From the IMG/VR virus record IMGVR_UViG_2531839531_000010, positions 1 through 9,839 of that record: a stretch of DNA of 9,839 nucleotides. One strand, 5' to 3'. Position 1 is the stretch's first letter, and each line of letters opens with the position of its first letter. The notes beneath the pieces are model-generated. The model saw only the letters and a program-made list of their open reading frames with translations, was not told where the DNA came from and searched no databases. A program made the translations under genes and the position numbers. Source of the DNA: a virus. Taxonomy: Duplodnaviria > Heunggongvirae > Uroviricota > Caudoviricetes. This document shows positions 3,022 through 4,182 of the stretch, piece by piece.

Positions 3022-4182
3022 ATGGAAAATTTTGCAAATAAGTTAAAAATACACACAGAGCATGTTGCAAAAATGGGGGTGTTTTGTACAACTGAAGAAA
3101 CGACAAAACAAGCACTCATTATGCCATTACTAGATATTCTTGGTTTTACTCCGTATGATCCAAGAAAAGTCAAAGCTGAGTATAGTGCTGACTTCCCCGG
3201 GGTTAAGGCTAATGAACGGGTTGATTACGCTTTATTTTGTCATGATGTTCCTGTGATGTTCATTGAGGCGAAATCGTTTTCAGAACAAATTGATAATCAC
3301 TGCCCACAGCTATCAAGATATTTTAATTCAACACCGGAAGTTACTATATCAGCCATTACAAATGGTGTTGAATGGCGTTTTTTTACGGATTTGAAACAAA
3401 AAAACATAATGGATTCAACGCCGTTTTTAAAATTAAGAATGGATTCTCTAACTCACTCCGATATTACACAATTATTTCGTTTTCGTTATGATAAATTCAA
3501 ACCAGAGGCTTTACGGACACTGGCTGAAGAAAGTGTTTATTTGAATTCATTTACTAAAACAATCAGTTCTAGTCTTCGTGAAGTTGATCTGGAGTTTGTT
3601 CGATATGTTGCTAGTCGTTCAAATATTGAGAGGCAACTTAATCAGAGATTTCTTGAGTTCGTGACTCCATTAGTTAAACAGGCCGTTGAGCGCGCTGTTA
3701 GCGCAATGGTGGTTTCCGGGCTATCTACACAACCGGTAGAGCAAACTAAAGAAAATGATGCAACGGATACACAAGTTAATAACGCCATTGTTGATGAAGA
3801 AAACCCCAACATAATAACCACAGCCAAAGAATTGGAGCTATTTGAAAGGGTAAAACAAATCATACAAACAGAAGATAATATAGAATATAAAGATACTGAG
3901 TCATATTTCGGTGTACTATTGAATGGTAAAACTAATAGATGGCTGTTAAGATTTTATGATAAAAAATCTTCATTTATAACTTTACCTATTTCGCTTAGTG
4001 AAGTTCAGTTGAATGAAATAAGACGAGCTCGACTTGATACGGATGGTAAAAGGATACATATAACTAATCCGGAAGATATACTTCGCATATCTGGTTTGAT
4101 TCTGGATTCATACGAGTATGTTAAAAATGATGATAATTTCCGCCGAGGGTCCAGAGTGAGCAGTTTAGAAGAGGTTGAATAA
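3022..4182 (+). CDS. PD-(D/E)xK nuclease-fold protein with an HsdR N-terminal-type domain and an unassigned C-terminal domain; candidate defence or exclusion moron
   Basis: Start set at ATG 3022 rather than track ATG 3007 because GGAGGAG (3009-3015) lies 6 nt upstream of 3022, while 3007 has no Shine-Dalgarno. The N-terminal ~120 aa (ALIMPLLDILGF...ERVDYALFCHDVPVMFIEAKSF...QLSRYF...ITNGVEWRFF) matches the pattern I know from the type I restriction HsdR N-terminal domain family. Putative catalytic D68 is at 3223-3225 and E82-A-K84 at 3265-3273. GC is about 28-38% against about 47-53% in the flanks. Confidence 0.8.
   Translation: MENFANKLKIHTEHVAKMGVFCTTEETTKQALIMPLLDILGFTPYDPRKVKAEYSADFPGVKANERVDYALFCHDVPVMFIEAKSFSEQIDNHCPQLSRYFNSTPEVTISAITNGVEWRFFTDLKQKNIMDSTPFLKLRMDSLTHSDITQLFRFRYDKFKPEALRTLAEESVYLNSFTKTISSSLREVDLEFVRYVASRSNIERQLNQRFLEFVTPLVKQAVERAVSAMVVSGLSTQPVEQTKENDATDTQVNNAIVDEENPNIITTAKELELFERVKQIIQTEDNIEYKDTESYFGVLLNGKTNRWLLRFYDKKSSFITLPISLSEVQLNEIRRARLDTDGKRIHITNPEDILRISGLILDSYEYVKNDDNFRRGSRVSSLEEVE

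What the first reader, a model, noticed from the sequence alone, without database searches (positions are those of the whole stretch)
3022..4182. AT-rich moron encoding an HsdR-N-type PD-(D/E)xK nuclease protein: candidate single-gene anti-phage or exclusion system
The translation shows a clear restriction-endonuclease-fold signature (acidic D68 in ERVDYALF, then IE82-A-K84, then a conserved Q in QLSRYF and the ITNGVEWRFF strand) in the first ~120 residues, followed by ~260 residues I cannot assign to any family. The gene is about 15-20 GC points lower than its phage neighbours, so it was acquired horizontally. Standalone nuclease-domain genes carried as prophage morons are a recurring form of defence or superinfection-exclusion system, and I do not recognise this whole protein as a named one. 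Alternatives are a homing-endonuclease-like selfish gene or a non-catalytic DNA-binding protein.
Basis: partly seen in the sequence, partly recalled or inferred. Interest (0 to 1): 0.85.

Follow-up and report, generated by a model that had tools for sequence, protein, structure and literature searches.

The report
Stand-alone restriction-type nuclease prophage moron
A self-contained, AT-rich gene cassette wedged between two tail genes of an E. coli prophage encodes a lone restriction-type DNA-cutting enzyme from a large, experimentally untested family that temperate phages of many bacterial phyla carry, often right behind their lysogeny repressor, most likely to protect the lysogen against other phages.

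Summary
Window 3022-4182 (+) is an intact 386-aa ORF inside a 1331-bp swappable cassette (2884-4214; GC 0.36 against 0.48-0.50 in the phage flanks). The cassette has a promoter-like site, a strong Shine-Dalgarno and a terminator hairpin. It lies between a small baseplate-module gene and baseplate J of an E. coli prophage at the Rac/ompN site.

Pfam confirms an HsdR_N nuclease domain. E25, D68, K84 and Y100 are invariant, and E82 and Q96 nearly so, in relatives only 23-49% identical. A pLDDT-92 model resolves the unassigned 260 residues as a basic helical region like that of type IIG/IIL enzymes, an acidic linker, and a YdhG/YjbR/MotA-type "double-wing" domain.

The family is large (at least 2,741 clusters) and has a fixed architecture. 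It has no motor domain and no methyltransferase or HsdM/S partner, so RefSeq's "type I restriction endonuclease" is a misnomer. It occurs in temperate phages of five phyla. Its commonest position is directly behind, and co-oriented with, the CI-type repressor, the slot that holds sieB in K-12 Rac.

The best reading is a lysogen-expressed, single-gene defence nuclease. The function is inferred, not shown. PADLOC has no match. Identity with DefenseFinder's FS_HsdR_like could not be tested.

The parts
2884..4214 (.). Swappable low-GC cargo cassette (moron) between a small baseplate-module gene (phrog_7986; RefSeq CDS 2525-2872) and baseplate J (4223-5449)
   Evidence: Identity to Actinobacillus phage vB_Apl-pPE4 (PP818812) stops at 2883 and resumes at 4215. 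That phage and Rac-SA53 carry a reverse-strand antirepressor plus a hypothetical gene here instead. GC is 0.358 against 0.48-0.50 in the flanks.
2964..2993 (+). Sigma-70 promoter-like site, TTGACA-18 nt-CAAAAT (10 of 12 matches)
   Evidence: It is the best-scoring site in the consensus scan of 2400-4400. This is a consensus match only, not shown to function, and the -10 element is weak.
3009..3015 (+). Shine-Dalgarno GGAGGAG, 6 nt before ATG 3022
   Evidence: Read directly from the sequence.
3022..4182 (+). CDS of 386 aa: stand-alone HsdR_N-family nuclease (RefSeq WP_000426903.1; PHROG 4225)
   Evidence: It aligns end to end with the family, and phrog_4225 scores E 1e-148 over the whole length.
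3022..3426 (+). Residues 1-135: PD-(D/E)xK nuclease domain of the type I HsdR N-terminal type. Catalytic codons: E25 3094-3096, D68 3223-3225, E82 3265-3267, K84 3271-3273, Q96 3307-3309, Y100 3319-3321
3427..3726 (+). Residues 136-235: basic helical region (pI 9.5) following the nuclease domain
3727..3807 (+). Residues 236-262: variable, acidic linker, disordered in its core (pI 4.05)
   Evidence: pLDDT is below 50 at residues 239-252. It is the only hypervariable stretch in alignment A1. Charge.
3808..4146 (+). Residues 263-375: C-terminal alpha/beta domain with the YdhG / YjbR / MotA-CTD 'double-wing' fold; putative recognition or sensor domain
4184..4211 (+). Intrinsic-terminator-like hairpin UAAAAAACCCGC-GAAA-GCGGGUUUUUUA, 2 nt after the stop codon and 12 nt before the baseplate J ATG
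   Evidence: RNA fold gives -17.4 kcal/mol, z -6.15, with 0 of 200 shuffles folding as well. The consensus scanner missed it; I infer this is because the A/U runs pair into the stem.

Best explanation
The cassette is a prophage moron. Its product is a stand-alone, catalytically competent restriction-type DNA nuclease that is made in the lysogen and protects it against incoming phage or other foreign DNA, i.e. a single-gene prophage defence or superinfection-exclusion function.

Shown here:
- The HsdR-type PD-(D/E)xK domain carries the full motif set (E25, D68, E82-x-K84, Q96xxxY100).
- The three-part architecture is fixed across the family.
- The gene is carried as a cassette in at least four prophage slots in E. 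coli alone.
- It has no conserved partner gene.
- It recurs directly behind the CI-type repressor.

Inferred:
- The gene is transcribed in the lysogen. In this window that would be from its own promoter while the late tail operon is silent. Elsewhere it would be as the distal gene of the repressor operon.
- The nuclease cuts DNA using the same two-metal chemistry as HsdR. Because it has no translocase, it must find its substrate through the basic helical region and the C-terminal double-wing domain.
- Because no methyltransferase protects the host, self and non-self must be told apart in another way. One option is recognition of a feature that only invading DNA has, as in type IV, modification-dependent enzymes (my estimate about 0.3). 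The other is that the C-terminal domain holds the nuclease inactive until a phage cue arrives, as in abortive-infection systems (about 0.25).
For: **Nuclease**
- Pfam HSDR_N scores 5.6e-14 and HSDR_N_2 scores 2.4e-9.
- Catalytic residues are invariant or nearly so at 23-49% identity.

**Moron anatomy**
- The breakpoints are 2883/4215, and an alternative Ant cargo occupies the slot in sister phages.
- There is a promoter-like site and a terminator hairpin with z -6.15.
- GC is 0.357 against about 0.49.

**Accessory and mobile**
- The gene is in 33 of 5,426 complete E. coli genomes, in four different prophage slots.

**Lysogeny-operon linkage**
- It lies 9-22 bp downstream of, and co-oriented with, HTH+Peptidase_S24 repressors in Citrobacter and Providencia.
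- It follows racR or an HTH repressor in E. coli and in Klebsiella phage KpF5.
- The order is repressor, ImmA, gene, integrase in Roseburia, and repressor, a small unannotated ORF, gene, integrase in pneumococcal phage IPP25.
- Of 80 species-level proteobacterial loci, 22 have an HTH_3 regulator directly upstream, and 18 of those have a full S24 repressor.
- In K-12 Rac the same interval holds sieB.

**Solitary**
- No methyltransferase, HsdM/S or helicase is listed among the neighbours.
- In Gilliamella it is a lone gene between housekeeping genes, so it is tolerated without a partner.

**Phage-borne across phyla**
- It matches 19 deposited phages; the six inspected carry lysogeny or prophage features.
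- It matches PHROG 4225 end to end.

**Neighbours** include other conflict genes: HicAB, RES and PIN toxins, and antirepressors.
Against: - No experiment and no paper on this family was found.
- PADLOC-DB v2 has no matching model.
- Only about a quarter of the proteobacterial loci sit next to a repressor. Some loci lie among chromosomal genes, for example five Serratia loci next to an isochorismatase and Gilliamella next to pdxST. The ORF calls behind that census were crude.
- The promoter is only a consensus match with a weak -10 element.
- The C-terminal domain is not basic (pI 5.9). Its best fold match, the YdhG-like/frataxin fold, has no established DNA-binding role, so substrate recognition by this domain is speculative.
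- Position in a lysogeny operon is also compatible with addiction or other lysogen-benefit functions.
Confidence: 0.58

Rival explanations
1. Abortive-infection or toxin version of the same role. The nuclease is kept inactive by the C-terminal domain or the acidic linker and is switched on by a phage protein or an infection cue. It then degrades host and phage DNA indiscriminately and kills the infected cell. This is a mechanistic alternative within the defence reading.
Against: There is no PADLOC match to Shedu or any Abi effector. No trigger is known. The fold of the C-terminal domain has a DNA-bound precedent (MotA CTD, 5jlt), which fits direct DNA recognition at least as well.
Confidence: 0.25
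2. Selfish homing-endonuclease-like gene. It cuts cassette-free alleles of the phage slot and copies itself in by repair, with no benefit to the host.
For: The cassette is present or absent with base-precise intergenic breakpoints. It encodes a PD-(D/E)xK nuclease and occurs in several phage slots.
Against: The flanks differ completely between slots: baseplate genes, Q/stx, racR, CI-ImmA-int. A site-specific homing enzyme would not be expected in so many unrelated sites. In the repressor slots the gene is co-oriented with the repressor at 9-30 bp spacing, which implies expression in lysogeny, when no co-infecting target genome is usually present. The gene is stably placed in Gilliamella chromosomes. 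The empty allele in this slot is not empty; it holds a different cargo.
Confidence: 0.06
3. The nuclease works for the phage's own lytic programme or competition: host-DNA degradation, recombination or replication-intermediate processing, or attack on rival mobile elements such as satellites and plasmids, rather than lysogen defence.
For: PHROG files it under 'DNA, RNA and nucleotide metabolism'. In Rac-type prophages it lies just upstream of the recET / exonuclease VIII recombination genes.
Against: It is accessory: about 25 of roughly 90 E. coli genomes with this phage type carry it. In this window it sits in the tail module, not among replication genes. In Gram-positive phages it lies between the repressor-ImmA pair and the integrase, which is the lysogeny unit. 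It has its own terminator and promoter-like site.
Confidence: 0.1
4. Prophage-maintenance or addiction nuclease. It damages cells that lose the prophage or its repressor, or otherwise acts in the lysogeny switch.
For: It has an operon-like arrangement with the repressor in many prophages.
Against: No cognate antitoxin gene is conserved next to it. It also occurs in tail and late-region slots and in chromosomal sites far from any repressor.
Confidence: 0.06
5. The database reading: a type I restriction endonuclease (HsdR), or an inactive remnant of one, working with host HsdM/HsdS.
For: This is the RefSeq product name. The nuclease domain truly is of the HsdR type.
Against: The protein is 386 aa with no ResIII or helicase motor; Pfam finds only HSDR_N in 68 of 68 relatives. 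No hsdM or hsdS lies next to it in any locus inspected. The region after the nuclease domain is a conserved family-specific module, not a truncated motor. It is not a remnant, because the full length is conserved from 23% to 99% identity.
Confidence: 0.02

Closest known systems
Nuclease domain of type I restriction subunit HsdR (EcoR124I, PDB 2w00; Vibrio vulnificus fragment, 3h1t)
   Different: There is no SF2 translocase, no C-terminal HsdM-binding domain and no HsdM/HsdS genes. It therefore cannot work by ATP-driven DNA reeling, and it is not part of an R-M complex.
Type IIG / IIL single-chain enzymes BpuSI (3s1s) and DrdV (7lo5)
   Different: Those enzymes continue into a methyltransferase and a target-recognition domain (870-1016 aa). 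Here the connector leads to an acidic linker and a small double-wing domain, and there is no methyltransferase.
Type IV (modification-dependent) restriction enzymes such as Mrr, MspJI and PvuRts1I-type enzymes
   Same: The logic is the same: a solitary PD-(D/E)xK nuclease fused to a separate recognition domain, with no cognate methyltransferase. JGI's automatic name for some family members is 'predicted type IV restriction endonuclease'.
   Different: The nuclease subfamily differs, and the C-terminal domain is not a known modified-base reader (SRA, EVE, YTH, winged helix). Dependence on DNA modification is untested.
Lysogen-expressed exclusion genes beside the prophage repressor (lambda rexAB, Rac sieB, Salmonella BTP1 bstA)
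   Same: Same genomic logic: an accessory gene placed next to the repressor and expressed in the lysogen. In K-12 Rac the interval between racR and kilR holds sieB. The rexAB and bstA positions are from my own knowledge.
   Different: The proteins are unrelated (membrane or KilA-N proteins versus a nuclease), so the mechanism must differ.
Shedu (SduA) and other single-protein sensor-regulated PD-(D/E)xK defence nucleases
   Same: One polypeptide with a PD-(D/E)xK nuclease plus accessory domains, and no modification enzyme.
T4 MotA C-terminal 'double-wing' domain, E. coli YjbR (DUF419) and YdhG-like/DUF1801 proteins
   Different: There is no detectable sequence similarity. The conserved residues here (T266, T267, E270, D291, Y295, R310) define a family-specific surface of unknown ligand.
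DefenseFinder system 'FS_HsdR_like' (PICI-borne single gene; Fillol-Salom et al., Cell 2022). Recalled from memory only.
   Same: As I recall it, this is a single gene named for an HsdR-like domain, carried by a mobile element and shown to block phages.
   Different: I could not obtain its sequence or the paper, so homology is untested. None of the loci seen here was annotated as a PICI.

Membership tests
Type I restriction enzyme R subunit (HsdR) | N-terminal PD-(D/E)xK nuclease domain with D / E-x-K / QxxxY motifs | tested here: met
Type I restriction enzyme R subunit (HsdR) | SF2 helicase-type ATP-dependent translocase (ResIII plus Helicase_C) following the nuclease | tested here: not met
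   The protein is 386 aa. Pfam finds only HSDR_N and HSDR_N_2 in it and in 68 of 68 relatives. The model shows helices plus a small alpha/beta domain instead. The NCBIfam HsdR equivalog scores 18.9 bits against a cut-off of 729.
Type I restriction enzyme R subunit (HsdR) | Works with, and is encoded near, HsdM and HsdS | tested here: not met
   No such neighbours appear in the window's locus, in 8 context look-ups or among the 25 most frequent neighbour families of the 80-species census. A distant host-encoded partner cannot be excluded by sequence alone.
Type IIG / IIL restriction-modification enzymes (BpuSI, DrdV) | Nuclease fused to a gamma-class methyltransferase and a target-recognition domain in one chain | tested here: not met
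   No methyltransferase domain is found by Pfam. PADLOC IIG models hit only the nuclease part of some relatives.
Type IV (modification-dependent) restriction enzymes | Nuclease without a cognate methyltransferase | tested here: met
   No methyltransferase is listed among the neighbouring families on either side. The gene is solitary in Gilliamella.
Type IV (modification-dependent) restriction enzymes | Cleavage requires modified bases in the substrate | not testable with these tools
   This needs plaque assays with T4 against T4 with unmodified cytosine, and in vitro digests of modified and unmodified DNA.
Type IV (modification-dependent) restriction enzymes | A recognised modified-base reader domain (SRA, EVE/PUA, YTH, Mrr-N winged helix) | tested here: not met
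   The C-terminal domain matches the YdhG/YjbR/MotA-CTD fold instead. No Pfam reader domain is found.
Phage moron (Hendrix-type: autonomous extra gene in a phage operon) | Present in some and absent from other closely related phages at the same position | tested here: met
   The breakpoints are 2883/4215. Sister phages hold an Ant cassette instead.
Phage moron (Hendrix-type: autonomous extra gene in a phage operon) | Own terminator, and composition different from its neighbours | tested here: met
   Hairpin at 4184-4211 with z -6.15; GC 0.357 against about 0.49, and GC3 0.26 against 0.50-0.62.
Phage moron (Hendrix-type: autonomous extra gene in a phage operon) | Own promoter that is active in the lysogen | tested here: inconclusive
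   TTGACA-18-CAAAAT at 2964-2993 is a 10 of 12 consensus match. Activity is not testable here.
Named anti-phage systems in PADLOC-DB v2.0.0 | Match to any system protein model | tested here: not met
   The window protein has no hit at E up to 1. Its relatives give only weak nuclease-domain hits to IIG REase and Cas4 models.
PHROG 4225 ('endonuclease') | Full-length profile match | tested here: met
   E 9.8e-149, covering residues 6-375 of the 391-aa translation and profile positions 1-357 of 357.
Homing endonuclease genes | Tied to one conserved target site, intron or intein | tested here: not met
   The gene occupies at least four unrelated slots in E. coli and others elsewhere.
DefenseFinder FS_HsdR_like | Match to the system's HsdR_like profile | not testable with these tools
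The paper is not held, and the name is absent from the library.

The most novel reading that the evidence does not exclude
This is the E. coli representative of a very widespread family (thousands of clusters in five phyla, and abundant in human-gut Roseburia prophages). The family would be a previously unvalidated single-protein immunity system that temperate phages co-transcribe with their own repressor. It would be an HsdR-type nuclease that needs neither a motor nor a methyltransferase, because a novel double-wing domain reads a non-self feature of invading DNA, or a phage cue, and licenses cutting.
Probability: 0.35. Interest if true: 0.7.

Novelty: new variant of a known kind. Interest (0 to 1): 0.55.

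Why it matters
If the protein does defend lysogens, it would add a compact 1.2-kb, single-gene, methyltransferase-free restriction-type system that current defence catalogues (PADLOC v2) miss. It is common in prophages of gut Firmicutes, Bacteroidota and Enterobacterales. That would improve predictions of phage host range and of phage-therapy failure.

It would also correct a widespread mis-annotation, "type I restriction endonuclease", attached to proteins that have no motor and no HsdM/S.

It would provide a tractable model for how an HsdR-type nuclease is targeted without DNA translocation. The C-terminal double-wing domain would then be a candidate new DNA or signal reader.

The recurrent placement behind CI-type repressors in Gram-negative and Gram-positive phages makes the hypothesis directly testable with simple lysogen and plasmid assays.

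Tried and rejected
**Sequence-level identification of the C-terminal 260 residues.** Pfam, NCBIfam, PADLOC and PDB-sequence profile searches found nothing beyond the nuclease domain.

**First AlphaFold model.** The model built from close homologues only was poor (pLDDT 66.6), and its Foldseek hits were marginal. It was replaced by a model from a divergent alignment (pLDDT 92).

**Literature.** These searches gave no functional study of the family:
- 'prophage Lp2 protein 6'
- 'HsdR-like' with PICI and defence terms
- 'FS_HsdR_like'
- 'HsdR N-terminal domain' with prophage
- HSDR_N, PF04313, PF13588 and DUF450
- type IV restriction with prophage terms

Papers read for leads were irrelevant or merely listed the gene. 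The Fillol-Salom 2022 paper is not held.

**Other searches that led nowhere.**
- The afdb50 fold library was unavailable.
- A search for sister prophages of the STEC384 repressor slot found none. It did reveal CRISPR spacers against the gene.
- The Rfam scan of the window gave no hits.

**Readings rejected.**
- A type I HsdR or a remnant of one: no motor and no HsdM/S.
- A non-catalytic binding protein: the catalytic residues are invariant.
- A homing endonuclease: too many unrelated insertion contexts, and the gene is linked to the lysogeny operon.
- An HsdR decoy acting as anti-restriction. I rejected this from my own knowledge that HsdR binds the methylase core through its C-terminal region, not its nuclease domain. 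It was not tested.
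Full report
**1. What is in the window**

The 9.8-kb window is the tail and baseplate end of an E. coli prophage. Window 2363-9839 is 99.95% identical to the prophage next to uspF/ompN (the Rac region) in E. coli 214-4, and the stretch around the finding (2400-4700) is 100% identical. Window 1-2362 is an IS66-family element (tnpA/B/C) that is absent at that point in strain 214-4.

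The remaining genes are a small gene of unknown function (phrog_7986, RefSeq CDS 2525-2872), baseplate J (4223-5449), a phrog_8212 protein, a tail fibre, a fibre assembly protein and a second fibre. The finding's ORF lies between the small gene and baseplate J.

**2. Check of the observation**

The ORF is real. ATG 3022 is preceded by GGAGGAG at a 6-nt spacing, and the stop codon is at 4180-4182, giving 386 aa. RefSeq annotates the same CDS as WP_000426903.1, 'type I restriction endonuclease'.

The quoted motifs are present, and Pfam backs them: HSDR_N E 5.6e-14 and HSDR_N_2 E 2.4e-9.

GC is 0.357 (GC3 0.262), against 0.50 for both flanking genes and 0.475 for the rest of the phage.

**3. The cassette**

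Identity to Actinobacillus phage vB_Apl-pPE4 ends at window 2883, 11 nt after the upstream stop codon. It resumes at 4215, 8 nt before the baseplate J ATG. That phage and Rac-SA53 instead carry an antirepressor and a hypothetical gene on the other strand. So 2884-4214 is a swappable cargo cassette.

Inside the cassette are:
- the best promoter-like site of the region (TTGACA-18-CAAAAT, 2964-2993);
- the Shine-Dalgarno and the ORF;
- a strong hairpin with flanking A and U runs at 4184-4211, 2 nt after the stop (-17.4 kcal/mol, z -6.15).

This is the classical anatomy of a moron.

About 90 of 5,426 complete E. coli genomes have this phage type (flanks at 90% identity or more), and 25 of them carry the nuclease cassette. 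Of the sampled others, one holds an Ant cassette and others match only part of the region.

**4. The protein**

The family was sampled at two depths. Close homologues (62-99% identity, 348-391 aa) occur across Enterobacterales and Gilliamella. A whole-library search with residues 131-386 found 397 representatives at 50% clustering. Most of the full-length hits are 340-420 aa with the match starting near residue 130, and the shorter hits look like fragments. The architecture is therefore fixed. A profile search found at least 2,741 clusters, mostly from gut Firmicutes.

In 68 members at 23-49% identity, E25, D68, K84, Y100 and G115 are invariant, and E82 and Q96 are at least 90% conserved. This is the D / E-x-K / QxxxY motif set of the HsdR nuclease domain. 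The 14-residue spacings match those I recall for EcoR124I (own knowledge). Such conservation argues for a working active site.

The helical region 136-235 is basic (pI 9.5). Residues 236-262 form a variable acidic linker whose core (239-252) is disordered. The C-terminal domain is near neutral.

There is no motor domain and no methyltransferase domain.

**5. Where the family lives**

Within E. coli the gene is rare, in 33 of 5,426 genomes. It occupies four different prophage slots:
- the baseplate slot of this window;
- between Q and the methylase/tRNA/stx2 region of an Stx2 phage, on the opposite strand;
- directly after racR;
- directly after another HTH repressor in a prophage at the ttcA site.

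Outside E. coli:
- In Citrobacter and Providencia prophages it lies 9-22 bp downstream of, and co-oriented with, an HTH+Peptidase_S24 repressor. It is divergent from cro/ydaS-ydaT and upstream of kilR/ydaE/recET.
- Klebsiella phage KpF5 has it after a Rac-type repressor.
- In Roseburia prophages the order is CI-type repressor, ImmA protease, this gene, integrase.
- Pneumococcal phage IPP25 has repressor, a small unannotated ORF, this gene, integrase.
- In Porphyromonas phages it follows HicAB in a cargo cluster within the structural module.
- In a Bacteroidota element it lies at the prophage end.
- In Gilliamella it is a lone gene between pdxST and a GFA-family gene.

A census of 80 species-level loci from Gamma- and Betaproteobacteria used crude ORF calls. 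It found an HTH_3 regulator directly upstream in 22 loci, 18 of them with a full S24 repressor. The other neighbours were varied: Q antiterminator, tail Dit, HicAB, RES and PIN toxins, antirepressors, DinI, transposases and housekeeping genes. No methyltransferase, HsdM/S or helicase appeared among the 25 most frequent families on either side.

In E. coli K-12 Rac, the interval between racR and kilR that this gene occupies in related prophages holds ydaG, ydaF and the superinfection-exclusion gene sieB.

**6. Interpretation**

Several things are shown. The protein has an HsdR-type nuclease domain under strong selection. The family architecture is fixed. The gene is carried as a cassette in prophages of many phyla. 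It has no conserved partner. It is frequently arranged like an operon with the lysogeny repressor.

The rest is inferred. The gene is probably expressed in lysogens and probably serves the lysogen as a defence or exclusion nuclease. Because it has neither a translocase nor a protective methyltransferase, there are two options. It may recognise something peculiar to invading DNA, as type IV enzymes do; this is also JGI's automatic name for some members. Or it may be held inactive until a phage cue arrives, as in abortive infection. I cannot separate the two computationally. I give defence overall about 0.58.

The RefSeq name is a misnomer. A homing-endonuclease role is unlikely given the many unrelated insertion contexts and the linkage to the lysogeny unit. 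A non-catalytic role is unlikely given the invariant active-site residues.

**7. Comparison with what is known, and novelty**

The family is catalogued as PHROG 4225 'endonuclease' and under the RefSeq and JGI automatic names. I found no experimental study of it, and PADLOC-DB v2 has no model for it.

The kind of thing, a prophage-carried single-gene nuclease defence, is well known. The domain combination is not one of the named systems I could test.

From memory, DefenseFinder lists a PICI-borne single-gene system called FS_HsdR_like (Fillol-Salom et al. 2022). I could not get its sequence or the paper, so this stays an untested lead. If it is the same family, the anti-phage activity is already demonstrated, and this locus would be a new member in a new carrier.

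I therefore rate the finding as a new variant of a known kind, of moderate interest.

**8. Seen in passing**

Type I-E CRISPR arrays in about 40 E. coli genomes carry spacers identical to another allele of this gene. Two such spacers were confirmed in the ATCC 8739 array, at gene nt 562-595 and 919-953, and neither matches the window's allele. The family has therefore been part of phages that E. coli CRISPR met. Other items are listed separately.

Noticed in passing
L021:10001-11155 (E. coli STEC384 allele of the same gene family); spacers in L031:1168-1930 (E. coli ATCC 8739 CRISPR array): Type I-E CRISPR arrays in about 40 of 5,426 E. coli genomes carry spacers 100% identical to the STEC384/STEC379 allele of this nuclease gene. 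Two were confirmed in the ATCC 8739 array (gene nt 562-595 and 919-953). BLAST shows a third protospacer inside the gene in other strains, plus near-identical matches just downstream of it. None matches the window's allele.
   Followed up: partly
window 1-2362: An IS66-family element (tnpA, tnpB and the IS66 DDE transposase, GC 0.57) ends at 2362. At this point strain 214-4 has uninterrupted phage sequence between a baseplate gene and the small phrog_7986 gene. The tail operon of the source prophage is therefore interrupted, and the prophage may be defective.
   Followed up: partly
window 2419-2517 (118-bp conserved element 2400-2517): A 32-codon hydrophobic ORF (MAEKLSTWKFLLIWLVFLILASGYFVGQIRWW) is conserved at about 85% DNA identity in roughly 770 E. 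coli genomes and in Stx phages and H-19B. In an Stx2a phage the matching sequence forms the 3' end of a 72-codon annotated ORF between the endolysin and the Rz-type endopeptidase. Here it sits in front of the small phrog_7986 gene. It is mostly unannotated. It could be a small membrane peptide or a recombination boundary sequence.
   Followed up: partly
L002:4449-5504 (Actinobacillus phage vB_Apl-pPE4); same slot as window 2884-4214: The alternative cargo in this baseplate slot is a reverse-strand antirepressor plus a hypothetical gene. The intergenic gap upstream of baseplate J is therefore a cargo-exchange point in this phage group. The record is deposited as an Actinobacillus phage yet is about 96% identical to E. 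coli prophage DNA.
   Followed up: partly
L001:5168-6604 (E. coli 214-4 prophage, upstream of the window region): The gene immediately after the large terminase, where a portal gene is expected, is named 'anti-CBASS protein Acb1 family protein' in RefSeq. This may be an annotation artefact or a fused function. It was not examined.
   Followed up: no
L027-L030:8230-8730: In the Bacteroidota-type elements the 410-aa family member is followed by a 166-aa ORF that overlaps its stop codon by 4 nt and has no Pfam hit. This could be a lineage-specific partner, whereas the gene is solitary elsewhere.
   Followed up: no
window 3022-4182 and database records of its homologues: RefSeq names this motor-less 386-aa family 'type I restriction endonuclease' or 'type I restriction endonuclease subunit R', while PHROGs says 'endonuclease' and JGI says 'predicted type IV restriction endonuclease'. 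The type I name is misleading, because no translocase domain and no HsdM/S genes are present.
   Followed up: yes
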